DNA of 36,024 nucleotides. Origin: a virus (lineage: Duplodnaviria > Heunggongvirae > Uroviricota > Caudoviricetes). The notes under the pieces are model-generated. The model made no database searches and was not told the origin of the DNA. It saw nothing but the letters and a program-made list of their open reading frames with translations. The stretch's first letter is position 1, and every line of letters starts with the position of its first letter. The stretch is from the IMG/VR virus record IMGVR_UViG_2609459800_000003. The stretch is one strand, 5' to 3'. The translations under genes were made by a program, and so were the position numbers. Positions 4,167 through 34,662 of this stretch are shown here, piece by piece.

Positions 4167-6441
4167 AGCCTCCGGGCGTTTTGTCCCTCCGTCAGCATTT
4201 GCCGCAGGCACCGGTAAGGCGTTTGCCGGTGCTTATGCATGGAACGCGCCACGCGAGGCTGTCGGGCGCGAAAGACCCCTTACACGTGACGAGATGCGTC
4301 AGGTGCAAGGTGTTTTATCCACGATTAACCGCCTGCCTTACTTTTTGCGCTCGCTGTTTACTTCACGCTATGACTACATCCGGCGCAATAAAAGCCCGGT
4401 GCACGGGTTTTATTTCCTCACATCCACTTTTCAGCGTCGTTTATGGCCGCGCATTGAGCGTGTGAATCAGCGCCATGAAATGAACACCGACGCGTCGTTG
4501 CTGTTTCTGGCAGAGCGTGACCACTATGCGCGCCTGCCGGGAATGAATGACAAGGAGCTGAAAAAGTTTGCTGCCCGTATCTCATCGCAGCTTTTCATGA
4601 TGTATGAGGAACTCTGTGATGCCTGGGTGGATGCGCATGGCGAAAAAGAATCGCTGTTTACGGATGAGGCGCAGGCTCACCTCTATGGTCATGTTGCTGG
4701 CGCTGCACGTGCTTTCAATATTTCCCCTCTCTACTGGAAAAAATACCGTAAAGGGCAGATGACCACGAGGCAGGCATATTCTGCCATTGCCCGTCTGTTT
4801 AACGATGAGTGGTGGACTCATCAGCTTAAAGGCCAGCGTATGCGCTGGCATGAGGCGTTACTGATTGCTGTCGGGGAGGTAAATAAAGACCGTTCACCTT
4901 ATGCCAGTAAACATGCCATTCGTGATGTGCGTGCGCGCCGCCAGGCAAATCTGGAATTTCTTAAATCGTGTGACCTTGAAAACAGGGAAACCGGCGAACG
5001 CATCGACCTTATCAGTAAGGTGATGGGCAGTATTTCTAATCCTGAAATTCGCCGGATGGAGCTGATGAACACCATTGCCGGTATTGAGCGTTACGCCGCC
5101 GCAGAGGGTGATGTGGGGATGTTTATCACGCTGACCGCGCCGTCAAAGTATCACCCGACTCGTCAGGTCAGAAAAGGCGAAAGTAAAACCGTTCAGCTTA
5201 ATCACGGCTGGAACGATGAGGCATTTAATCCAAAGGATGCGCAGCGTTATCTCTGCCGCATCTGGAGCCTGATGCGCACGGCATTCAAGGATAATGATTT
5301 ACAGGTCTACGGTTTGCGTGTCGTCGAGCCACACCACGACGGAACGCCGCACTGGCATATGATGCTTTTTTGTAATCCACGCCAGCGTAACCAGATTATC
5401 GAAATCATGCGTCGCTATGCGCTCAAAGAGGATGGTGACGAAAGAGGAGCCGCGCGAAACCGTTTTCAGGCAAAACACCTTAACCGGGGCGGTGCTGCGG
5501 GATATATCGCAAAATACATCTCAAAAAATATCGACGGCTATGCACTGGATGGTCAGCTCGATAACGATACCGGCAGGCCGCTGAAAGACACTGCAGCGGC
5601 TGTTACCGCATGGGCGTCAACGTGGCGCATCCCGCAATTTAAAACGGTTGGTCTGCCGACAATGGGGGCTTACCGTGAACTACGCAAATTGCCTCGCGGC
5701 GTCAGCATTGCTGATGAGTTTGACGAGCGCGTCGAGGCTGCACGCGCCGCTGCAGACAGTGGTGATTTTGCGTTGTATATCAGCGCGCAGGGCGGGGCAA
5801 ATGTCCCGCGCGATTGTCAGACTGTCAGGGTCGCCCGTAGCCCGTCGGATGACGTTAACGAGTACGAGGAAGAAGTCGAGAGAGTGGTCGGCATTTACGC
5901 GCCGCATCTCGGCGCGCGTCATATTCATATCACCAGAACGACGGACTGGCGCATTGTGCCGAAAGTGCCGGTCGTTGAGCCTTTGACTTTAAAAAGCGGC
6001 ATCGCCGCGCCTCGGAGTCCTGTCAATAACTGTGGAAAGCTCTCCGGTGGTGATACTTCGTTACCGGTTCCCACACCTTCTGAACATGCCGCAGCCGTGC
6101 TTAATCTGGTTGATGACGGTGTTATCGAATGGAATGAGCCAGAGGTCGTGAGGGCGCTCAGAGGTGCATTAAAACACGGACTGAGAACACCAAATCGTCA
6201 GCAGAGAAACGGAAGCCTGTTAAAACCACATGAAATAGCGCCATCGGCCAGACTGACCCGGTCGGAACGAACGCAAATTACCCGTATCCGCGTTGACCTT
6301 GCTCAGAACGGTATCAGGCCGCAGCGATGGGAGATTGAGGCGCTGGCGCGTGGGGCAACCGTAAATTATGACGGGAAAAAATTCACGTATCCGGTCGCTG
6401 ATGAGTGGCCGGGATTCTCAACAGTAATGGAGTGGACATGA
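4156..6441 (+). CDS. A: rolling-circle replication initiator A (nickase)
   Basis: 761 aa from ATG 4156 (MAVKASGRFVPP...), the N-terminus I recall for P2 A; the track ORF from 4114 is an upstream extension. Conserved HxH-type motif (PHWHMMLF) and tyrosine-containing region (GYIAKYISKN) typical of phiX174/P2-type Rep proteins. Confidence 0.95.
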   Translation: MAVKASGRFVPPSAFAAGTGKAFAGAYAWNAPREAVGRERPLTRDEMRQVQGVLSTINRLPYFLRSLFTSRYDYIRRNKSPVHGFYFLTSTFQRRLWPRIERVNQRHEMNTDASLLFLAERDHYARLPGMNDKELKKFAARISSQLFMMYEELCDAWVDAHGEKESLFTDEAQAHLYGHVAGAARAFNISPLYWKKYRKGQMTTRQAYSAIARLFNDEWWTHQLKGQRMRWHEALLIAVGEVNKDRSPYASKHAIRDVRARRQANLEFLKSCDLENRETGERIDLISKVMGSISNPEIRRMELMNTIAGIERYAAAEGDVGMFITLTAPSKYHPTRQVRKGESKTVQLNHGWNDEAFNPKDAQRYLCRIWSLMRTAFKDNDLQVYGLRVVEPHHDGTPHWHMMLFCNPRQRNQIIEIMRRYALKEDGDERGAARNRFQAKHLNRGGAAGYIAKYISKNIDGYALDGQLDNDTGRPLKDTAAAVTAWASTWRIPQFKTVGLPTMGAYRELRKLPRGVSIADEFDERVEAARAAADSGDFALYISAQGGANVPRDCQTVRVARSPSDDVNEYEEEVERVVGIYAPHLGARHIHITRTTDWRIVPKVPVVEPLTLKSGIAAPRSPVNNCGKLSGGDTSLPVPTPSEHAAAVLNLVDDGVIEWNEPEVVRALRGALKHGLRTPNRQQRNGSLLKPHEIAPSARLTRSERTQITRIRVDLAQNGIRPQRWEIEALARGATVNYDGKKFTYPVADEWPGFSTVMEWT

Positions 6442-6893
6442 TGGCAAAAATTCACGAGGTAAAGCTGCACGCAAAATATTTCGACCTTGTGCTGGAAGGA
6501 AAGAAACGCGCAGAGTTTAGGAAAAATGACCGTAATTATGAGCACGGGGACACGTTGATTTTGCATGAATGGGTGCAGGGTGTGTATACGGGGCGAAAGG
6601 TTGAAGTCCGGATAACAGATGTTACTGACCTGTCAGATTGGCTGGAAGATTATGTCTTGCTAAGTATTGAGCTGCTTAATACAGGCGCATATGAGATTGT
6701 GAACTGGAAAGAACTTAGTGAGCGTGGTCTGGTATTCAGAATTAATCATGAAATTATGCATCAGCTCGGCCTTGCTGTTATGTATGAACCAGAGACGGGG
6801 ATGTCTGGCGGGGCAATGGTTGCCACGGATGGAGCATGGAACTATTCAGATGAACAGATGGAGCGTGCACCGCAAAACGGGTGGCTTGGATAA
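6438..6893 (+). CDS. DUF3850/ASCH-like (PUA-fold) domain protein with uncharacterised C-terminal extension
   Basis: ATG 6438 overlaps the A stop (ATGA) and follows GGAGTGG; N-terminal about 75 aa (HEVKLHAKYFDLVLEGKKRAEFRKNDRNYEHGDTLILHEW) fits the DUF3850/ASCH pattern as I remember it. The track start at 6405 is GTG inside A. Confidence 0.6.
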   Translation: MMAKIHEVKLHAKYFDLVLEGKKRAEFRKNDRNYEHGDTLILHEWVQGVYTGRKVEVRITDVTDLSDWLEDYVLLSIELLNTGAYEIVNWKELSERGLVFRINHEIMHQLGLAVMYEPETGMSGGAMVATDGAWNYSDEQMERAPQNGWLG

Positions 6894-7099
6894 TGCACAG
6901 AATACCAGGCGAGATACCGCACCATAAAACTAAAAATATCAAGCTGATGGCCATTGTTCACCGTCTACAGCAGATTATGGTCAACGAAAATCTGACGCCC
7001 GATGAGCTAGTCGGGTGTGCCGAAATAGTCCGGGATAATTACGTATGGCTTAACTATATCGGTCAGTCCAGCGCTGCACCGCCACCACGCAGACGATAG
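6893..7099 (+). CDS. small hypothetical protein (68 aa)
   Basis: ATG at 6893 overlaps the upstream stop (TAATG); the track start at 6881 is GTG. No recognisable motif. Confidence 0.4.
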   Translation: MHRIPGEIPHHKTKNIKLMAIVHRLQQIMVNENLTPDELVGCAEIVRDNYVWLNYIGQSSAAPPPRRR

Positions 7100-7287
7100 A
7101 GAACGCAGCCAGCTCAGGATTGGCGGGGGATAGAATAACGAGCATAGTGATGCGATTAGACAAACAGACTGACTGGTACACTTAGGATGGTTATAGTGGT
7201 TTCTAAGTGCTTTAGCGATACATCTGGTGGAGTGTTTTACCAACCTCAGAGTTAGCTGAATTTTTAACAAAATACCATTTTGATAGA

Positions 7288-7316
7288 TTTGCCTAATTTA
7301 TTAATTAAACTATACT
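7288..7316 (+). promoter_or_regulatory. candidate sigma70-type promoter for the 7408..8408 module
   Basis: TTTGCC (7288..7293), 17-bp spacer, TATACT (7311..7316) in the AT-rich stretch upstream of the 78-aa ORF; visual match only. Confidence 0.25.
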
Positions 7317-7407
7317 GGACTTATACACAGTGTTCTGTTAATTGTTAGGTTGGTAAGATATTGTGAGGAGGTGATTACTATCTTGGCATCAATCAAGTGG
7401 AGGTTAA

Positions 7408-7644
7408 ATGATGAATATATTTGAACGTATTATAGGTAAAGCTGCCATTGAAAAGGAAAGAGAACTGGCGAGGAGGCTTGAAGCATCTGGAACAAACACT
7501 GTTGAGGTGGTAGGTCGAGGCGCGATTATCACGTCTAAAGAAGACTTGGCAAGCTCAGATACAGTAAAATTGATGAAAATTAAAGCAAGAAGAATAGTTT
7601 CTGAGCAGGTAAAGCAAGAAGAAAAAATGGCTAAAGGGAATTAA
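7408..7644 (+). CDS. small charged hypothetical protein (78 aa), first gene of a two-gene cargo module
   Basis: ATG 7408 with strong GGAGG 5 nt upstream; AT-rich codon usage; stop 3 nt before the next start. Confidence 0.55.
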   Translation: MMNIFERIIGKAAIEKERELARRLEASGTNTVEVVGRGAIITSKEDLASSDTVKLMKIKARRIVSEQVKQEEKMAKGN

Positions 7645-7646
7645 TA

Positions 7647-8408
7647 ATGTTTGCTTTATTAATTATTCCATTACTTGTGAGTGGTTATATTGTATTAACC
7701 ACTCATCCTTATCATTTCTATAGATTACACCGTTATGATGGGCAGTTGTTATATATGAAGTCAGCCGCCTTTGGTCTGTGGTGTTTTATATGGACATTGA
7801 TTATAGCTTACTTAATAAAATGGATATGTCCGAGCTTCCATCCTGTCACGATGGTTCGGGAACAATTAGATCTCAAACTTAGTGACAATGGTACTGAAAG
7901 AATCATAGGATGGATGATTTTACTTTCATGTGGATCGATATTTTTGGCTTGGATATGGAGTGCCGGTGCTAGATATTTGGTTATATATAGAGCTAAAATT
8001 ATAAATTATATCCAAGGGGTAAAGGCTGCCAATATTGATTATGAGAATCTTGTCATGCTAAGGATGAGGCAAGAGCTTATTAATGATAATCCAATGGATG
8101 AAATATTTTTTGATTCGTTAGTTGATAGACGTTCAATACTTATTACGTTGCAAAATAAAAAGACATATGTAGGAATTGTTAACGCATTAGGTGAGCCTAA
8201 CGAGAAAGAAGGACCTAACCAGTATGTTTCAATCTATCCTATTATCTCTGGGTATAGAGATAAGGATTCATTGAAAGTAATCTTGGTGAATGAATATAGA
8301 GAACTTGAGGATGCTGATACTAGTATCATCTTTCCACTAAAAGAAATTTCGCAAGTTTCTTGGTTTGATATGGATATTCATAAAATAGTTGAAAATAATA
8401 AGGTGTAG
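7647..8408 (+). CDS. membrane protein with three predicted N-terminal TM helices and a soluble C-terminal domain of about 145 aa, function unknown
   Basis: 253 aa; hydrophobic segments around residues 2-19, 40-59 and 86-105; AT-rich; tightly coupled to the upstream 78-aa ORF; no catalytic motif recognised. Confidence 0.7.
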   Translation: MFALLIIPLLVSGYIVLTTHPYHFYRLHRYDGQLLYMKSAAFGLWCFIWTLIIAYLIKWICPSFHPVTMVREQLDLKLSDNGTERIIGWMILLSCGSIFLAWIWSAGARYLVIYRAKIINYIQGVKAANIDYENLVMLRMRQELINDNPMDEIFFDSLVDRRSILITLQNKKTYVGIVNALGEPNEKEGPNQYVSIYPIISGYRDKDSLKVILVNEYRELEDADTSIIFPLKEISQVSWFDMDIHKIVENNKV

Positions 8409-8411
8409 TAA

Positions 8412-8436
8412 ATGGTCACCTATAAAAGGTGACCAT
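8412..8436. terminator. bidirectional hairpin between convergent cargo operons
   Basis: Perfect 10-bp inverted repeat ATGGTCACCT / AGGTGACCAT with 5-nt loop, between the stop at 8408 (+) and the stop at 8442 (-); T-rich stretch on the + side. Confidence 0.5.
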
Positions 8437-8441
8437 AATGC

Positions 8442-10706
8442 TTATTTTTGACGAATCCTGATTTTTGGTTGTTCACGAACAACAATATCAGTTTCTTTCC
8501 AACCAAGATTATTTATTTCAACCTCGGCTTCGTTGTAGACTGTAGTAGAATTGGCAAGAGATCTTAACGTAATAGCCAATACAGCACGTTGAGGTGAAGA
8601 TAGAGGCTCTTGCTCTGCTCGTCTCTGAACATCAAGTTTAAGTCTCCATTGCTCCCCATTTATACCTTGCGGAAATTGTTTTCTATAAACTTTGACTGGA
8701 GACCATTTGAAGCCATTTTCTATCAGTACCTTTTCAAATAATTCACTCTTTTCTTTTATTTGTGGAATTTTTCCGCTATGTATCCATTTAGCGTTAACTG
8801 GATCATAAGTGTAAGTCCCGAATGACACATCCACATTAGAACGGCAATATTCAGATGGGTAGTCATAATCAAGCGGTGGAGAATAAACGAGTGTCATAAT
8901 AATTTCACCTGTGAATTTTCCATCCTCAGTACGTAATGACTGTGGTATTACAAATGGCGTTCTACTGAATTCAATACCTTCTCGGGTATCTATTTCAAAT
9001 AGAAATGTAATCTCATTTTTATTGCAACCAATAATATCATTTATATGATCGCTTGGACGTCCAAATCCTTGATAATTAAACGCATAATGCTCCGTTTTGG
9101 CTGGTGAGTTTTTTAACGCAGAATGAATTAATAGTGCCTTGATACGTTCAGGCGATGGTGAAATAGAACCATTAACATCTAGTTCATGCCACAGTGATGC
9201 CGCTAAACTTGAGATTAACGGTGCTGATAAACTTGTGCCAATACTTTCGCAAAGAGCATTGTCCTCGCCAATAGCTATGATTCCGGTATGTTCACAGTTT
9301 AATTTACTGTCACAATTACCTCCAAAGTGATTTATCTCTGGTTTGGGTATAAAGGCTGGGCCGGGACCTCTTCTAGAAAAAGATGAAGGTTCAAATCTTT
9401 TGACCACAGAGTCAGACGATTCTAAATGGGCAACTGAGCCAACAGTTAATGAACGAACAGAATCTGCGGGGGCTGATATTCTGTCATGCCCACCTAATTC
9501 TTGAGGAGGCCAGGTTCGTTGAGGATCATAAATGTAGTTGCCGGATGCTACGACGAAAAGACAATCATGCTCATCATGAAGTGCATTTAAAAAATGCCCC
9601 AATTCAGAGAAGCTGTCTTCAGAACATGGGGATTGACAACCTAATGACAGGTTCCATACACGTACTTCTGGATAGGTGGTCACAGCCTCTCGGATAGCTT
9701 TCATTAATTGTGGCAATTTGAGCGTACCATCTTTGGGAAAGGCTGCAACATCAACAATTTCAGCTTGGCATTGAGGAAAACCAGCATAGTTATTCAACCA
9801 TCTTCCATTAATTGCTAAACTTGCAACCATGTTCCCATGAGAATAGTCGTGTTCTCCTTTTACTAAATCTAAACTATCCCAAATCCATGGCCTAAGTATG
9901 TTGTTATTGGGATCGACTCCGCTATCTATAATTCCGAGTAGTGGATAATGTTTATCCTCTTGAGGTAAGGGAAAATCATCTAGGTCTAGAGTTTCAGCAG
10001 GAATATATTGCGATACTGTATGAGTAAGACCAAATGTTGGCATAGGTTCTAATTTTCGTATGCCAATAAAACTTGCCAGTTGGGCGATGTTATCATTCCC
10101 TTTTACTTCATATATACTCAAATCTGAACTGATATCATACTTTTTGGGTTTTTGTATTCCTAGTTCATCTGCAAATTCCATTAATTCTTTGTCGATACTG
10201 CGGTTAGTTGTTCTATCTTTATGGTCAAAGAGTTTCAGAAGAAAACTATCTGATTTATTTTTATCTATAACATCATGGTTAAGACTAAAAGGTTCGATCT
10301 TTTCAATTACAGCAATATGTACTGTCCCATTATGAGAATTAGTGCTATTTTCAATTTTTTTGCGAAGTTGTGCTAACCCTTTTTCAGTAACACTTATAAG
10401 TAATTCTCCAAAATTATCACTGCCTATTACGGGACATGTATTATCACCTAATAGGCTTGATGGGCGATGTGACTTAGCAAGAGCTTTTTCATGAAGAGTA
10501 ACTCTAGCCACCGCCGGTATATTGGGCCATTTTTTAAATGAGCTCTGGAAAAAATTTTTAACGTCATCGACTTCTTGTTTGAGTCTATTTTTTAGACTAG
10601 TTGTTACTGTTCGGATAGGTTGTTTCTTTCCGAAATTATATGTTTTTTCAGTAAAATCTTGAGGTGTCGCCTCAATTATTTTTATTGGTCTTTCTTTGTT
10701 ACTCAT
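8442..10706 (-). CDS. subtilisin-like serine protease (peptidase S8), cytoplasmic; IetS-like
   Basis: 754 aa; full subtilase signature: Asp (GIIDSGVD), His (HGNMVASLAING), oxyanion Asn (VVASGNY), Ser (GTSLSAPLISSLAA); no N-terminal signal peptide; N- and C-terminal extensions of about 250 aa each around the catalytic core; start overlaps the stop of the upstream ATPase. Confidence 0.9.
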   Translation of the reverse strand: MSNKERPIKIIEATPQDFTEKTYNFGKKQPIRTVTTSLKNRLKQEVDDVKNFFQSSFKKWPNIPAVARVTLHEKALAKSHRPSSLLGDNTCPVIGSDNFGELLISVTEKGLAQLRKKIENSTNSHNGTVHIAVIEKIEPFSLNHDVIDKNKSDSFLLKLFDHKDRTTNRSIDKELMEFADELGIQKPKKYDISSDLSIYEVKGNDNIAQLASFIGIRKLEPMPTFGLTHTVSQYIPAETLDLDDFPLPQEDKHYPLLGIIDSGVDPNNNILRPWIWDSLDLVKGEHDYSHGNMVASLAINGRWLNNYAGFPQCQAEIVDVAAFPKDGTLKLPQLMKAIREAVTTYPEVRVWNLSLGCQSPCSEDSFSELGHFLNALHDEHDCLFVVASGNYIYDPQRTWPPQELGGHDRISAPADSVRSLTVGSVAHLESSDSVVKRFEPSSFSRRGPGPAFIPKPEINHFGGNCDSKLNCEHTGIIAIGEDNALCESIGTSLSAPLISSLAASLWHELDVNGSISPSPERIKALLIHSALKNSPAKTEHYAFNYQGFGRPSDHINDIIGCNKNEITFLFEIDTREGIEFSRTPFVIPQSLRTEDGKFTGEIIMTLVYSPPLDYDYPSEYCRSNVDVSFGTYTYDPVNAKWIHSGKIPQIKEKSELFEKVLIENGFKWSPVKVYRKQFPQGINGEQWRLKLDVQRRAEQEPLSSPQRAVLAITLRSLANSTTVYNEAEVEINNLGWKETDIVVREQPKIRIRQK

Positions 10707-11866
10707 AATATCTCTCTATAGTTCTTAGTTAGCCTTGACACTTTAGCATTTGAAAGCCCTAGTATTTTTGCTATCTTTCGTATTGTAAATCTTTTGGGAT
10801 TGTATTCTCTGAGAGTGGTCACAATCTTTATAAGTAAATTATCTTCTTCATCAAATGTAACTCCCTTCGCTTCTAAGATAGCCTCGACTAAAAATCGGGT
10901 ATCGATTTGTTTATTATTGTAAACCAGAGCGTGTCGCTCAGATCTTAAGCAGCATTGTTCTATAAATGAGCAGTTTAGCCCTGAGGATATTTCCGCAAGG
11001 TCATCAACAAAATCGTCATATGTGGCTTTTATGTTTGAATATTGTTCAAATAGTTGTTTTCTGACTTCAAAATCAGGCAATCCAATAGATATTCTATACT
11101 CAAAGCGCCTCCAAACTGCGCTATCTAGAAGATTTTCATGATTACTTGCAGCAATCAATATTGTTTCTTCAGGTAGATTGTCAATATTTTGCAATAAAGA
11201 AACCACCACCCTCTTCAGTTCACCTAACTCATGCTGATCATCTCTAGCCTTTGCTAGAGAATCTAGTTCATCTAGAAATAAAACACATGGTGCTTTACTT
11301 GCATACTCAAATAGCTGCCTGATATTTTTAGAAGTAGACCCCAGATATGATGAGACTAAGGAGTCACATCTTGCAGTAAGAAGCGGTAAATTTAGACAGG
11401 ATGCAATATATTTTGATGTCAAGGTTTTACCACAACCTGGTGGCCCATATAAAATCATAGAGGATGTCACGCCAAGACCGGCATCCTTTAATTCTTTAGC
11501 TCGTTCAGTGAAAGTCAAAAATTCTTTAATTTTTTTCAGAGTGCTATCTTTCAACAATGGGAGTTGAATTTCAGAAGACGGTTGAGTTACGTCTGCTAAA
11601 TCAAATTTAGTTTCTTTATCTACAGGTAATGTATCAAGACGTTCAAAAATAGGTGATGTACTACGTGATACTTTCTGCAAGTTAAACGTGTTTTTATCTT
11701 GAATACTACCTCTAATGGCTGAAGCAAGCTCAGGCAGCCCCATAGAATCATAGGAACGCGCGAGTTTCGAAGCCTGCCGAACAAAAGCAACTTTATCCCC
11801 TTTGAGTCCAAGACTGATAAGCTGCGAAAGTATCTCGTTTGTGGTCATTTGTGATACAAACCTCAT
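10703..11866 (-). CDS. classic-clade AAA+ ATPase with C-terminal HTH-like tail; IetA-like
   Basis: 387 aa; Walker A GPPGCGKT, Walker B VLFLDELD, sensor-1/arginine-finger region (AASN...WRRFEYRISIGLP); C-terminal KRFTIRKIAKILGLSNAKVSRLTK resembles an HTH. Start codon uncertain (ATG at 11866 has no clear SD; an in-frame ATG lies 18 nt downstream). Confidence 0.9.
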   Translation of the reverse strand: MRFVSQMTTNEILSQLISLGLKGDKVAFVRQASKLARSYDSMGLPELASAIRGSIQDKNTFNLQKVSRSTSPIFERLDTLPVDKETKFDLADVTQPSSEIQLPLLKDSTLKKIKEFLTFTERAKELKDAGLGVTSSMILYGPPGCGKTLTSKYIASCLNLPLLTARCDSLVSSYLGSTSKNIRQLFEYASKAPCVLFLDELDSLAKARDDQHELGELKRVVVSLLQNIDNLPEETILIAASNHENLLDSAVWRRFEYRISIGLPDFEVRKQLFEQYSNIKATYDDFVDDLAEISSGLNCSFIEQCCLRSERHALVYNNKQIDTRFLVEAILEAKGVTFDEEDNLLIKIVTTLREYNPKRFTIRKIAKILGLSNAKVSRLTKNYREIL

Positions 11867-12107
11867 TAATCTGTTGTCTAAATGGCTTATAGGTGAGACA
11901 AATTTCTATTTTAATGTAGTTTATATGTATTTTGGTGAAACGAACACTATGTTTTACATAAATCTTTCAGGTTTGGAGTTCTTGGAGGGCATAGAGTTGC
12001 ATCAATTTGCATTCTAATTAGACTTTTTTATTGCTATCGTATTCTACATGTGACTAGGTCTGCCCTTCCTGATGCGTTTGCATTAAAACCGCCCCATGAA
12101 GCGGGCG

Positions 12108-12126
12108 GGCGAGGCGGGGAAAGCAC
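12108..12126. other. cos cohesive-end site (GGCGAGGCGGGGAAAGCAC)
   Basis: Exact 19-nt sequence I recall as the P2/186 cohesive end, in the expected position upstream of the Q-P packaging genes in a GC-rich stretch. Confidence 0.6.
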
Positions 12127-12268
12127 TGCGCGCTGGCGGTGGTGCTGATTTTATTTTTTCAGCGTCTGAGCGCGTCGTGATGGCGTTTAGATTGTGCGCC
12201 GGGGTGTTGGTGTGTCTGCGGGATGTTTTGTGCGGTGGTGAGCGTGTGAGGGCGTGATGACGGGGTGT

Positions 12269-12290
12269 AAAAAAGCCGCCCGCAGGCGGC
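12269..12290 (-). terminator. rho-independent terminator downstream of Q
   Basis: On the minus strand GCCGCC-TGCG-GGCGGC hairpin followed by TTTTTT, 5 nt after the Q stop. Confidence 0.5.
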
Positions 12291-12295
12291 GATGT

Positions 12296-13330
12296 TCAGC
12301 CGTTGTCAGTGTCCAGTGAGTAGTTTTTAAAGCGGATGACCTCCTGACCGAGCCAGCCGTTTATCTCGCGGATCCTGTCCTGTAACGGGATAAGCTCATT
12401 GCGGACAAAGACCTTTGCCACTTTCTCAATATCACCCAGCGACCCGACGTTCTCCGGCTTGCCGCCCATCAACTGAAAGGGGATGCGGTGCGCGTCCAGC
12501 AGGTCAGCGGCGCTGGCTTTTTTGATATTAAAAAAATCGTCCTTCGTCGCCACTTCACTGAGGGGGATAATTTTAATGCCGTCGGCTTTCCCCTGCGGGG
12601 CATAGAGAAACAGATTTTTAAAGTTATTGCGGCCTTTCGACTTAACCATGTTTTCGCGAAGCATTTCGATATCGTTGCGATCCTGCACGGCATCGGTGAC
12701 GTACATGATGTATCCGGCATGTGCGCCGTTTTCGTAATACTTGCGGCGGAACAGCGTGGCCGACTCATTCAGCCAGGCAGAGTTAAGGGCGCTGAGATAT
12801 TCCGGCAGGCCGTACAGCTCCTGATTAATATCGGGCTCCAGCAGGTGAAACACGGAGCCGGGCGCGAAGGCTGTCGGCTCGTTGAAGGACGGCACCCACC
12901 AGTAAACATCCTCTTCCACGCCACGACGGGTATATTTTGCCGGTGAGGTTTCCAGTCTGATGACCTTACCGGTGGTGCTGTAGCGCTTTTCCAGAAACGC
13001 ATTACCGAACACCAGAAAATCCAGCACAAAACGGCTGAAATCCTGCTGGGAAAGCCACGGGTGCGGGATAAACGTTGAAGCCAGAATATTACGTTTGACG
13101 TAAATCGGTGAGCTGTGATGCACGGCAGCACGCAGGCTTTTTGCCAGACCGGTAAAGCTGACCGGCGGCTCATACCATCTGCCGTTACTGATACATTCGA
13201 CGTAATCCAGAATGTCACGGCGGTCGAGCACCGGCACCGGCTCACCAAAGGTGAATGCCTCCATTTTCGGGGCGCTGGCGGTCATTTTTTTTGCCGCAGG
13301 TTGCGGTGTTTTCCCTTTTTTCTTGCTCAT
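12296..13330 (-). CDS. Q: portal protein Q
   Basis: 344 aa as in P2 Q; start overlaps the P stop (ATGA). Confidence 0.92.
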   Translation of the reverse strand: MSKKKGKTPQPAAKKMTASAPKMEAFTFGEPVPVLDRRDILDYVECISNGRWYEPPVSFTGLAKSLRAAVHHSSPIYVKRNILASTFIPHPWLSQQDFSRFVLDFLVFGNAFLEKRYSTTGKVIRLETSPAKYTRRGVEEDVYWWVPSFNEPTAFAPGSVFHLLEPDINQELYGLPEYLSALNSAWLNESATLFRRKYYENGAHAGYIMYVTDAVQDRNDIEMLRENMVKSKGRNNFKNLFLYAPQGKADGIKIIPLSEVATKDDFFNIKKASAADLLDAHRIPFQLMGGKPENVGSLGDIEKVAKVFVRNELIPLQDRIREINGWLGQEVIRFKNYSLDTDNG

Positions 13331-26890: not shown

Positions 26891-27136
26891 GTGCCGATAA
26901 TTTCATTCTACCCAATATCATTTATGATTGTAGATAAGAGTAGTGAAAAATATAACAACGGATATAGTGTTGCAATACCACTTGGAGCCGTGAAAATGGA
27001 ACTGGCCGATGATGTACTAAAAATAAACCTTTCATCATGGAATGATATTAAAACAGGATTTCCTTACACAGGGATTAATGAGTATGAGTTACTCATATTA
27101 GATGAGAATCTTTCATTTATAACTTATAAAAAATAA
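26891..27136 (+). CDS. hypothetical small protein at the Z/fun locus (start uncertain)
   Basis: The track start at 26891 is GTG; in-frame ATGs at 26924 and 26996, the latter preceded by GGAG (a 46-aa product). AT-rich; no motif recognised. Confidence 0.35.
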   Translation: MPIISFYPISFMIVDKSSEKYNNGYSVAIPLGAVKMELADDVLKINLSSWNDIKTGFPYTGINEYELLILDENLSFITYKK

Positions 27137-27191: not shown

Positions 27192-27494
27192 ATGGAAAAA
27201 AGTATGACAATTGAAACCATAAAAATACTAGCGGCAATTAGTAGCATCATTGGTTCTATGATTCTTGCCTATCGAGTTACAGGGATTCTTGCAGCACTTT
27301 CTCTTGCAATAAATTGCCATGAAGAAAACATTAAACAATTAATGCCAACCAATAAGGGGGATGTTTATTATCTCGCAAATGCAACTACGCACGTTAAAAA
27401 TGCGCAAAAGAAACCGCTTCTAATCACGGGGTTTATCTTTCTAATTGCATCTGGTTTTTTGCAGTTTACAGCGTTGATAATGGCAAATATTTAA
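27192..27494 (+). CDS. small membrane protein with two predicted TM helices, Z/fun locus cargo
   Basis: 100 aa; hydrophobic segments around residues 10-30 and 75-98; AT-rich; weak Shine-Dalgarno; followed by a terminator at 27664..27690. Confidence 0.5.
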   Translation: MEKSMTIETIKILAAISSIIGSMILAYRVTGILAALSLAINCHEENIKQLMPTNKGDVYYLANATTHVKNAQKKPLLITGFIFLIASGFLQFTALIMANI

Positions 27495-34491: not shown

Positions 34492-34518
34492 AAAAAATAA
34501 GCCCGTGTAAGGGAGATT
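34492..34518. repeat. attR core (27-bp direct repeat), also the 3' terminator end of cyaR
   Basis: Exact copy of 478..504. Confidence 0.85.
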
Positions 34519-34578
34519 ACACAGGCTAAGGAGGTGGTTCCTGGTACAGCTAGCATTTTATGGGTTATGTTTTTCAGC
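34492..34578 (-). ncRNA. cyaR: CyaR (RyeE) small regulatory RNA
   Basis: The reverse complement of 34492..34578 matches the 87-nt CyaR sequence as I remember it (GCUGAAAAACAUAACCCAUAAAAUGCUAGCUGUACCAGGAACCACCUCCUUAGCCUGUGUAAUCUCCCUUACACGGGCUUAUUUUUU); its intrinsic terminator is the att core. Not checked against Rfam. Confidence 0.7.
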
Positions 34579-34662
34579 GAAACGGATGATAACCTTAATA
34601 AATACAGCTGTATGTGATCGGTTTCTAAGAATTTTCCATCCGGGAAAAATAATCGAAATTAA

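What the first reader, a model, noticed from the sequence alone, without database searches (positions are those of the whole stretch)
8442..11866. ietAS-like operon: classic AAA+ ATPase coupled to a cytoplasmic subtilisin-like S8 protease
A translationally coupled pair (4-nt overlap) of a 387-aa AAA+ ATPase with intact Walker A/B and arginine-finger motifs and a 754-aa S8 subtilase with the full D-H-N-S catalytic set but no signal peptide. The composition and sizes match the ietAS defence system (IetA ATPase plus IetS S8 peptidase) as I recall it. The protease has large non-catalytic N- and C-terminal domains, and an unfoldase-plus-protease pairing suggests ATP-dependent targeted proteolysis. 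Even if it is a known family, its mechanism is not established and the phage-borne context is informative.
Basis: partly seen in the sequence, partly recalled or inferred. Interest (0 to 1): 0.65.

Follow-up and report, generated by a model that had tools for sequence, protein, structure and literature searches.

The report
IetAS defence pair in P2 prophage
This is a real, intact copy of the already catalogued IetAS anti-phage/toxin-antitoxin gene pair (an AAA+ ATPase plus a cytoplasmic subtilisin-like protease), sitting in the well-known defence hotspot of a P2-like E. coli prophage, so it is correctly identified but not new.

Summary
Two minus-strand genes overlap by 4 nt (ATGA). ietA is 10703..11866 (387 aa from the first ATG; more likely 381 aa from the ATG at 11848). 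ietS is 8442..10706 (754 aa).

Both match the PADLOC IetA and IetS models end to end (E 9e-132 and 1e-273). The ATPase motifs and the Asp261/His290/Asn390/Ser492 catalytic set are invariant in about 60 homologues. No signal peptide is visible.

The pair lies in a low-GC island between the replication gene gpA and the portal gene gpQ of a P2-like prophage. This is the published P2 defence hotspot. The same two protein accessions are already listed in Rousset et al. 2022, who label this gene pair ietAS.

This copy is a diverged subtype. IetA is 34% identical to the common E. coli P2 ietAS and 37% to an Agrobacterium plasmid pair. Both proteins score below the NCBIfam equivalog cutoffs.

Published genetics make IetS the toxin/effector and IetA the ATP-dependent antitoxin, acting by abortive infection. 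The biochemical mechanism is unsolved.

A side observation: a small protein plus a 3-TM protein (7408..8408) travels with this IetAS clade but also occurs widely without it.

Novelty: already known. Interest is low.

The parts
10703..11866 (-). ietA: classical-clade AAA+ ATPase (antitoxin/regulator). This is the maximal ORF of 387 aa; the likely start is the ATG at 11848 (381 aa, WP_000210436). Layout in 381-aa numbering: N-terminal three-helix domain (about 1-50), disordered linker (53-65), AAA+ module (about 100-330), C-terminal three-helix HTH-like domain (window 10706..10846).
   Evidence: PADLOC IetA 9e-132, profile 3-370 of 374; Pfam AAA 1e-31; AF2 pLDDT 85; Foldseek p97/FtsH/PAN/Rpt; 16 weak HTH families on the C-terminal 62 aa.
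8442..10706 (-). ietS: cytoplasmic S8 subtilase (toxin/effector), 754 aa (WP_000066157). It has a family-specific N-terminal region (1-250) with two beta-alpha-beta-beta-alpha-beta units and an invariant A75-x-A-K-S-H-R-P82 motif (10461..10484). The S8 catalytic domain is 255-549 (D261, H290, N390, S492). A C-terminal beta-sandwich covers about 560-745.
10703..10706 (-). ATGA start/stop overlap between ietA and ietS. It is consistent with translational coupling. The overlap itself is not conserved in homologous loci (gaps of 14-37 nt elsewhere), but the tight same-strand linkage is.
   Evidence: junctions in L002, L003, L011, L013, L015.
11867..12078 (-). AT-rich (33.5% GC) untranslated region upstream of ietA. 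It is presumed to hold the promoter/operator, but no convincing sigma-70 consensus was found. The GC-rich P2-conserved sequence begins at 12079.
   Evidence: inference only.
8412..8436 (.). Perfect 10-bp inverted repeat (ATGGTCACCT-ATAAA-AGGTGACCAT) between the convergent stop codons of p253 and ietS. It is a likely bidirectional terminator. A hairpin of different sequence occupies the same position in six homologous loci.
7408..8408 (+). Neighbouring two-gene cassette, convergent with ietAS: p78 (7408..7644) and p253 (7647..8408). p253 has three N-terminal TM helices and a conserved C-terminal domain. The cassette co-travels with this IetAS clade, but it has not been shown to be part of the system.
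   Evidence: no Pfam/PADLOC/NCBIfam hit; phrog_37504, phrog_3630.

Best explanation
The locus is an intact IetAS module carried as cargo in the gpA-gpQ defence hotspot of a P2-like prophage integrated at the yegQ/cyaR-yegR site of E. coli. This identity is shown here.

How it works rests on published genetics of other IetAS systems plus the anatomy found here; it is inferred, not shown.
1. IetS is a cytoplasmic subtilisin-like protease and acts as the toxic effector.
2. IetA is a classical AAA+ ATPase, presumably hexameric, co-expressed from the same operon. It uses ATP to keep IetS harmless in the uninfected lysogen. It may do this by holding or remodelling IetS through the IetS-specific N-terminal propeptide-like region.
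3. The C-terminal HTH-like domain of IetA may also autoregulate the operon.
4. When a competing phage infects, a phage-encoded trigger disturbs the IetA-IetS balance. IetS then cleaves host and/or phage proteins. The infected cell stops growing or dies before phage release (abortive infection), which protects sister lysogens and the prophage.
5. As a toxin-antitoxin pair, the same module would also stabilise the element that carries it.
For: **Identity**
- Both proteins match the PADLOC IetA/IetS models over their full length. The top NCBIfam hits are IteA/IteS.
- The pair is collinear with an Agrobacterium pRi plasmid pair at 37% and 22% identity, with the same best PADLOC models.
- In 10 of 10 independent homologous loci with room upstream, an AAA ATPase gene lies directly upstream of the S8 gene.
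- The ATPase and protease catalytic residues are invariant.

**Context**
- The window matches E. coli SC480 at 100%. Integrase, cox, gpA, portal, terminase and P2-family capsid genes flank the island.
- The island is 34-38% GC against 53-60% in the flanks.
- The gpA-gpQ hotspot is described in PMC9122126 and PMC13586616. These accessions are listed there, and the pair is labelled ietAS.

**Mechanism, from the literature**
- IetS is the toxin and IetA the antitoxin on pTiC58 and in SGI1.
- Protease activity is needed for defence, and ietA mutants could not be cloned (PMC13069673).
- IetAS acts by abortive infection, and a B. cereus IetAS is triggered by the SPbeta protein YosG.

**Anatomy**
- IetA resembles p97/FtsH/PAN unfoldases.
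- The IetS N-domain occurs only in IetS-type proteins among 1.84 billion representatives.
Against: - No experiment on this allele was found. The E. coli ietAS tested by Wu et al. (ECOR52) is a different allele, because its primers do not match the window.
- Both proteins fall below the NCBIfam equivalog cutoffs (387 < 510 and 782 < 900 bits). IetA is only 34-37% identical to other characterised or catalogued subtypes. Function is therefore extrapolated across considerable divergence.
- The pore-loop-1 aromatic residue is not conserved in the family (Y 35, F 16, L 8 of 59; Leu in the other subtypes). That weakens a strict threading mechanism.
Confidence: 0.85

Rival explanations
1. Two-component ATP-dependent protease. 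IetA recognises and unfolds specific phage or host proteins and hands them to IetS for degradation, as ClpX does for ClpP or the PAN/Rpt ring does for the 20S proteasome.
For: IetA belongs to the same classical AAA clade as PAN, Rpt, FtsH and p97. In this allele it keeps an aromatic-hydrophobic-Gly pore loop, Y174-L-G. The two genes are tightly coupled.
Against: - Published genetics show IetS is toxic without IetA, and IetA neutralises it. The protease therefore does not depend on the ATPase for activity.
- The closest structural relatives of IetS are ordinary subtilases. From general knowledge, subtilases have an open, accessible active site and are not chambered rings.
- The pore-loop aromatic residue is replaced by Leu in other IetA subtypes.
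Confidence: 0.12
2. Pure addiction module. The pair serves only to stabilise the prophage (post-segregational killing), as first described for pTiC58 and SGI1. It has no anti-phage role in this context.
For: ietAS was discovered as a plasmid stability/incompatibility toxin-antitoxin system, and the SGI1 homologue promotes island maintenance. The E. coli ietAS tested alone gave limited anti-phage activity in one study.
Against: - The pair sits in a hotspot whose cargo is overwhelmingly anti-phage systems.
- IetAS homologues from other hosts protect against phages and are triggered by a phage protein.
- The two roles are not mutually exclusive.
Confidence: 0.1
3. Four-gene system. The convergent pair p78 + p253 (a small protein and a 3-TM membrane protein) is a functional accessory of this IetAS subtype, for example a membrane effector, sensor or second antitoxin. 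This would be analogous to the helicase recruited in ietHAS.
For: - The four genes stay together from 100% down to about 55% protein identity. This holds in E. coli, Enterobacter, Citrobacter, Pectobacterium, Rahnella and Scandinavium.
- The whole 4.7-kb block is collinear at 77% nt identity between a lambdoid prophage and a P2-like prophage.
Against: - The pair is on the opposite strand, behind its own terminator hairpin.
- About 70 species-level loci with p253 relatives below 50% identity have no IetAS. A 48%-identical E. coli version sits alone next to a prophage integrase.
- Arsenophonus carries the pair (69% and 59% identity) without IetAS. IetAS homologues at 56%, 51% and 43% identity lack the pair.
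- Almost all linked cases are in the same P2 hotspot, so shared descent of neighbouring cargo is enough to explain the linkage.
Confidence: 0.1

Closest known systems
IetAS anti-phage system (Gao et al. 2020; PADLOC 'ietAS', DefenseFinder 'Gao_Iet', NCBIfam IteA/IteS)
   Same: Same two-gene architecture (AAA+ ATPase upstream of an S8 peptidase). Full-length matches to PADLOC IetA PDLC02196 and IetS PDLC02197. Full-length alignment to the NCBIfam IteA/IteS profiles. Intact ATPase and protease active sites.
   Different: Scores fall below the NCBIfam equivalog cutoffs (387/510 and 782/900 bits). Homologues that PGAP does name IteS (Dongshaea, Microbulbifer) are only 43-44% identical. No experiment on this allele was found.
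ietAS subtype most common in E. coli P2 hotspots (Rousset et al. 2022, system 7, 400 loci)
   Same: Same hotspot (gpA-gpQ of P2-like prophages), same domain pair, same AAA + C-terminal HTH layout in IetA, and a shared L-x-K-S-x-x-P motif in the IetS N-terminal region.
   Different: IetA is only 34% identical. The first 400 residues of IetS are barely alignable by BLASTP (E 0.006 over 70 residues). The window's subtype is rarer, found in 12 of 5426 complete E. coli genomes, and comes with the p78/p253 neighbours.
IetA/IetS toxin-antitoxin of Agrobacterium Ti/Ri plasmids (pTiC58; Yamamoto et al. 2009, cited in PMC13069673 and PMC5006074) and SgiAT of Salmonella genomic island 1
   Same: Homologous over the full length of both proteins. 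Against the pRiO132 pair, IetA is 37% identical (E 1e-65) and IetS 22% identical across residues 32-734 (E 9e-27). Catalytic D/H/N/S align, and the best PADLOC models are the same.
   Different: Carried on a plasmid or genomic island rather than a prophage, and described as stability/incompatibility modules. The pore-loop aromatic residue is Leu in the Agrobacterium IetA. Sequence divergence is large. I could not retrieve the pTiC58 record itself, so pRiO132 serves as a proxy.
ietHAS (Liu-DS4; PMC13069673)
   Same: IetA + IetS core. It shows that IetAS can recruit accessory genes that affect toxicity control.
   Different: No SNF2/DrmD-like helicase gene is present in the island. The only other genes are p78 and p253, which have no helicase motifs or Pfam hits.
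AAA+ protease machines (FtsH, Lon, PAN/26S proteasome, ClpXP)
   Same: The IetA ATPase module is a close structural and sequence relative of the PAN/Rpt/FtsH/p97 ATPase domains.
   Different: The partner protease is a subtilase related to ordinary, non-chambered subtilases. Published genetics place the ATPase as an inhibitor of the protease, not its activator.

Membership tests
IetAS (PADLOC / DefenseFinder sense) | An AAA+ ATPase gene directly upstream of an S8 peptidase gene, on the same strand, as a two-gene operon | tested here: met
   10703..11866(-) and 8442..10706(-) with a 4-nt overlap. The same arrangement is seen in 10 of 10 homologous loci.
IetAS (PADLOC / DefenseFinder sense) | The ATPase matches an IetA profile over its full length | tested here: met
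   PDLC02196, E 9.1e-132, residues 9-382 on profile positions 3-370 of 374.
IetAS (PADLOC / DefenseFinder sense) | The peptidase matches an IetS profile over its full length, including the non-catalytic N- and C-terminal regions | tested here: met
   PDLC02197, E 1.1e-273, residues 1-747 on profile positions 1-747 of 749. The N-domain is found only in IetS-like S8 proteins.
IetAS (PADLOC / DefenseFinder sense) | Intact S8 catalytic residues (protease activity is reported to be required for defence) | tested here: met
   D261, H290, N390 and S492 are present and invariant in 61 homologues. They align to solved subtilases.
IetAS (PADLOC / DefenseFinder sense) | Intact ATPase motifs in IetA | tested here: met
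   Walker A K147, Walker B D199/E200, sensor-1 N242, R253/R254 and R311 are invariant in 59 homologues.
IetAS (PADLOC / DefenseFinder sense) | Homology to the founding Agrobacterium plasmid IetA/IetS pair | tested here: met
   Against the pRiO132 pair, IetA is 37% and IetS 22% identical, collinear over nearly the full length, with the same best PADLOC models. pTiC58 itself was not retrieved.
IetAS (PADLOC / DefenseFinder sense) | Toxin (IetS) / antitoxin (IetA) behaviour | not testable with these tools
   Needs expression experiments. Known for pTiC58, SGI1 and ietHAS.
IetAS (PADLOC / DefenseFinder sense) | Protection against phage infection | not testable with these tools
   Needs plaque assays. 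No published test of this allele was found.
NCBIfam equivalogs IteA (NF042959) / IteS (NF042956), a narrow clade | Whole-protein score at or above the curated cutoff | tested here: not met
   IteA scores 387.2 bits against a cutoff of 510. IteS scores 782.4 bits against 900. RefSeq accordingly names the genes only 'AAA family ATPase' and 'S8 family peptidase'. This places the pair outside the narrow equivalog clade but inside the wider family.
ietHAS (three-gene variant) | An SNF2-family helicase gene (ietH) in the operon | tested here: not met
   No helicase ORF or Pfam hit in 7000..12300.
Chambered AAA+ protease machines (ClpXP/proteasome/FtsH/Lon type) | A self-compartmentalised protease ring, or a protease domain fused to the ATPase | tested here: inconclusive
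   The protease is a separate S8 subtilase whose nearest structures are ordinary subtilases. Its oligomeric state could not be modelled.
CBASS-associated TRIP13 / type VII secretion EccA+mycosin | Best profile match to those families and the matching partner genes | tested here: not met
   TRIP13 scores E 1e-14 against IetA 9e-132. Mycosin and EccA score E 1e-7, far below their cutoffs. There are no HORMA, CD-NTase or ESX genes nearby.

The most novel reading that the evidence does not exclude
The conserved four-gene block is a functional unit and a previously unrecognised IetAS subtype. It comprises p78, the 3-TM protein p253, a structure-conserved terminator hairpin, and the convergent ietS and ietA. 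In this reading the membrane protein is an accessory effector, sensor or second layer that cooperates with the protease. Alternatively, p78/p253 is by itself an undescribed, widespread prophage-borne two-gene defence or exclusion cassette.
Probability: 0.12. Interest if true: 0.5.

Novelty: already known. Interest (0 to 1): 0.2.

Why it matters
IetAS is common in E. coli. It is the 7th most frequent cargo of the P2 hotspot and was found in 35 of 79 porcine ETEC strains in one survey. Its biochemical mechanism is still unknown, so any well-defined allele is a possible study object. This copy adds nothing categorically new, because the family, its prophage location and these exact proteins are already in the literature.

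It does offer three practical things:
1. A clean, intact, diverged subtype with all catalytic residues.
2. A high-confidence structural model of IetS. It shows two propeptide-like units before the subtilase core, a C-terminal beta-sandwich, and an invariant AxAKSHRP motif that could be a processing or docking site.
3. A neighbouring membrane-protein cassette whose linkage could be tested.

Tried and rejected
- **Secreted or structural phage protease.** Rejected. There is no signal peptide or TM segment, the pair lies in the accessory hotspot rather than the morphogenesis operon, and the best profile is IetS.
- **TRIP13/CBASS or EccA/mycosin relationship.** Rejected on score and context.
- **ietHAS.** No helicase is present.
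- **Is this the E. coli ietAS tested by Wu et al. (ECOR52)?** Neither cloning primer matches the window with up to 3 mismatches, so that is a different allele.
- **Gao et al. 2020 full text.** Not held, so what Gao showed is cited only through later papers.
- **Literature search for newer mechanistic or structural work.** 'IetS/IetA' and 'IteS/IteA/SgiAT' gave nothing beyond what is cited. No IetA or IetS structure is in the PDB by sequence or fold.
- **Promoter or operator upstream of ietA.** The consensus scan gave no more promoter-like sites than shuffled sequence, and none upstream of ietA. Only weak inverted repeats were found.
- **Pfam on the isolated IetS N- and C-terminal regions and the IetA N-terminus.** No hits.
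- **Is the convergent pair next to a 51%-identical IetS (L013) related to p78/p253?** It is not.
- **Profile search of the p253 family against PDB sequences.** Nothing found.
- **Does the IetS N-domain occur fused to other effectors?** No. All full-length hits are 740-790-aa IetS-like proteins, and all ten shorter hits tested are truncated S8 proteins.
- **Limits of the structure tools.** Model coordinates cannot be inspected. I could not test whether the AKSHRP motif lies in the active-site cleft, and I could not model the IetA-IetS complex.


Full report
**1. Observation**

The junction is ...ATATT-ATGA-GTAAC..., so the ietS start codon overlaps the ietA stop codon by 4 nt.

The ATPase carries these motifs (387-aa numbering):
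- Walker A GPPGCGKT (141-148)
- Walker B VLFLDE (195-200)
- sensor-1 N242
- tandem arginines R253/R254 in the second region of homology
- an aromatic-hydrophobic-glycine pore loop (Y174-L-G)

The peptidase carries D261 (IIDSG), H290 (HGN), N390 (ASGN) and S492 (GTSLSAP). All four are invariant in an alignment of 61 homologues of 37-90% identity. They align with the catalytic residues of solved subtilases.

The IetS N-terminus is strongly hydrophilic, and no segment anywhere in the protein approaches transmembrane hydrophobicity. "No signal peptide" therefore holds, although it was tested by hydropathy only.

One correction is needed. RefSeq and the large protein collection call a 381-aa IetA that starts at the second ATG (11848). 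The family profile alignment also starts there.

**2. What it is**

PADLOC profiles match both proteins end to end: IetA PDLC02196 at E 9e-132 and IetS PDLC02197 at E 1e-273. Pfam sees AAA (137-262) and Peptidase_S8 (255-549). The best NCBIfam models are the "anti-phage ATPase IteA" and "S8 family anti-phage peptidase IteS" equivalogs, aligned over their full length. Both scores are below the curated cutoffs (387 against 510 bits and 782 against 900 bits). This explains why RefSeq labels the genes only "AAA family ATPase" and "S8 family peptidase".

The family is large. Hundreds of roughly 750-aa IetS homologues and thousands of IetA-like ATPases were found. In every homologous locus I fetched that had room upstream, the ATPase gene sits immediately upstream of the S8 gene.

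Against the ATPase+S8 pair of Agrobacterium plasmid pRiO132, IetA is 37% identical (E 1e-65). This plasmid belongs to the Ti/Ri lineage in which ietAS was first described. IetS is 22% identical but collinear across residues 32-734, with the catalytic residues aligned. Both Agrobacterium proteins hit the same PADLOC models best.

**3. Context**

The window is a complete P2-like prophage. It is 100% identical to E. coli SC480 and contains integrase, cox, gpA replication endonuclease, portal, terminase, GPO scaffold and P2-family capsid genes. It is inserted next to yegR/yegS, with the CyaR sRNA at the other end.

The IetAS genes lie in a 34-38% GC island between gpA and the portal gene gpQ. The flanks are 53-60% GC. 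This is the published P2 defence hotspot (PMC9122126; PMC13586616).

In Rousset et al. 2022 the "Peptidase_S8 | AAA" pair is labelled "ietAS (Gao et al, 2020)". It is the 7th most frequent P2-hotspot system, with 400 loci. The exact accessions of this window (WP_000210436, WP_000066157) appear in that table.

The representative listed there is a different subtype. Its IetA is 34% identical to this one, and its IetS N-terminal half is barely alignable except around an L-x-K-S-x-x-P motif. The subtype in this window is the rarer one: 12 of 5426 complete E. coli genomes carry the island at 80% or more coverage. No sequenced phage isolate carries it.

**4. Anatomy from models**

IetS folds with high confidence (pLDDT 90.2, pTM 0.92). 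The secondary-structure order gives three regions:
- residues 65-139 and 154-221: two beta-alpha-beta-beta-alpha-beta units
- 255-550: the subtilase core
- about 560-745: a beta-sandwich

The N-terminal region contains an invariant A75-x-A-K-S-H-R-P82 motif. A search of 1.84 billion representative proteins with residues 1-250 found this region only at the N-terminus of IetS-like proteins. All ten shorter hits I checked were truncated S8 proteins. It is therefore a family-specific module, not a shared sensor domain.

The IetA model (pLDDT 85) has four parts:
- an N-terminal three-helix domain
- a disordered linker
- a classical AAA+ module closest to p97, FtsH, PAN and Rpt subunits
- a C-terminal three-helix unit that gives 16 weak, sub-threshold HTH family hits (best E 0.0012), consistent with the "HTH_50" label of Rousset et al.

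The stretch R-D-D-x-H-E-L-G-E-L-K-R-V-V (the pore-loop-2 region) is nearly invariant and recognisable in all subtypes. The pore-loop-1 aromatic residue is not conserved (Y 35, F 16, L 8 of 59; Leu in the other subtypes).

**5. How it most likely works**

What is shown here is identity, integrity and context. The mechanism comes from published work on other IetAS systems:
- IetS is the toxin and IetA the antitoxin on pTiC58 and in SGI1.
- Protease activity is required for defence, and ietA-mutant constructs could not be obtained.
- A B. cereus IetAS acts by abortive infection and is triggered by the SPbeta protein YosG.
- The anti-phage mechanism "remains unknown" as of 2026.

I therefore favour this model. 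IetA uses ATP to keep IetS harmless. A phage cue breaks this restraint. IetS proteolysis then arrests or kills the infected lysogen.

How IetA restrains IetS is speculation. It may act on the propeptide-like N-terminal units. Whether the HTH domain autoregulates the operon is also speculation.

IetS is toxic without IetA, and subtilases are not chambered proteases. It is not excluded, however.

**6. Neighbours**

Two genes converge on ietS from the plus strand: p78 (7408..7644) and p253 (7647..8408). p253 has three N-terminal TM helices. Neither gene has a Pfam, NCBIfam or PADLOC hit, and the only matches are PHROGs of unknown function.

Several results point to a link with IetAS:
- The four genes stay together from 100% down to about 55% protein identity in several Enterobacterales.
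- The whole block is collinear at 77% nt identity between a lambdoid prophage and a P2-like prophage.
- A hairpin always separates the convergent units. Its sequence differs between loci, but the structure is kept.

Other results show the pair can stand alone:
- p253 relatives are widespread without IetAS, in about 70 species-level loci.
- A 48%-identical E. coli version sits alone beside a prophage integrase.
- Arsenophonus has the pair without IetAS.
- IetAS homologues at 56%, 51% and 43% identity lack the pair.
- Nearly all linked cases are in the same P2 hotspot.

I read the pair as an autonomous cassette that co-travels with one IetAS clade. A functional link is possible but unproven.

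**7. Verdict**

The finding is real and correctly named, but the system, its prophage location and these very proteins are already catalogued. It is a diverged, untested allele of a known family whose mechanism is still open. Novelty is "already known" and interest is about 0.2. The most novel reading not excluded is that the four-gene block is a functional unit, or that p78/p253 is an undescribed cassette in its own right (probability about 0.12).

Noticed in passing
window 7408..7644 (+) and 7647..8408 (+): A two-gene cassette: a 78-aa soluble protein and a 253-aa protein with three N-terminal TM helices and a conserved C-terminal domain. Invariant residues include K172, Y174, G176, P184, E186, S201-G-x-R204 and S238-W-F240. 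It has no Pfam, NCBIfam or PADLOC hit, only phrog_37504 and phrog_3630. It is linked to this IetAS clade down to about 55% identity. It is also widespread without IetAS in Pseudomonas, Legionella, Vibrio and others, and sits beside a prophage integrase in many E. coli. It may be an undescribed prophage accessory or defence cassette.
   Followed up: partly
window 8412..8436; homologous positions in L002, L003, L005, L016, L017, L019: A hairpin lies between the convergent stop codons of p253 and ietS. Its structure is conserved while its sequence differs between loci (for example ATGGTCACCT/AGGTGACCAT, AAAGAGGCC/GGCCTCTTT, CCTCCCCC/GGGGGAGG). It is a likely bidirectional terminator that insulates the two units.
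   Followed up: partly
window 10461..10484 (IetS residues 75-82): The motif A-x-A-K-S-H-R-P in the IetS N-terminal region is invariant in 61 homologues. It is still recognisable (L-x-K-S-x-x-P) in the distant E. coli and Agrobacterium subtypes. Its function is unknown. It could be a processing site, a pseudo-substrate or an IetA docking element.
   Followed up: partly
window 11195..11269 (IetA residues 205-229 in 387-aa numbering; 199-223 in the 381-aa numbering): The pore-loop-2 region A-K-x-R-D-D-x-H-E-L-G-E-L-K-R-V-V-x-x-L-L-Q-N-I-D is almost invariant across IetA subtypes. The canonical pore-loop-1 aromatic residue varies instead (Y/F/L). This is unusual for a classical AAA+ translocase.
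   Followed up: no
window 11848 versus 11866: There are two in-frame ATGs for ietA. Public annotation and the family profile favour the downstream one (381 aa). Neither has an obvious Shine-Dalgarno sequence.
   Followed up: partly
window 26891..27136 (+) and 27192..27494 (+): A second low-GC (about 41-43%) accessory region lies between the tail-fibre assembly gene and the tail sheath gene. It holds two small ORFs: one of 81 aa, and one of 100 aa that is hydrophobic and probably has 2 TM segments. They were not analysed further.
   Followed up: no
window 6405..6893 (+) and 6881..7099 (+): A DUF3850/ASCH + DUF7415 protein and a 72-aa ORF (phrog_11386) lie directly after gpA, at the edge of the hotspot. 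The DUF3850/ASCH gene recurs in many P2 hotspot entries in the Rousset table.
   Followed up: no
window 34495..34580 (-): CyaR/RyeE sRNA (Rfam RF00112, 100.7 bits) lies just outside the prophage end. The prophage therefore occupies the yegQ/cyaR-yegR site.
   Followed up: no
L013 3842..4710 (metagenome contig carrying a 51%-identical IetS): A different, unrelated convergent pair (216 aa + 57 aa) sits immediately downstream of ietS, in the same arrangement as p253/p78. This may be coincidence or an analogous accessory slot.
   Followed up: partly
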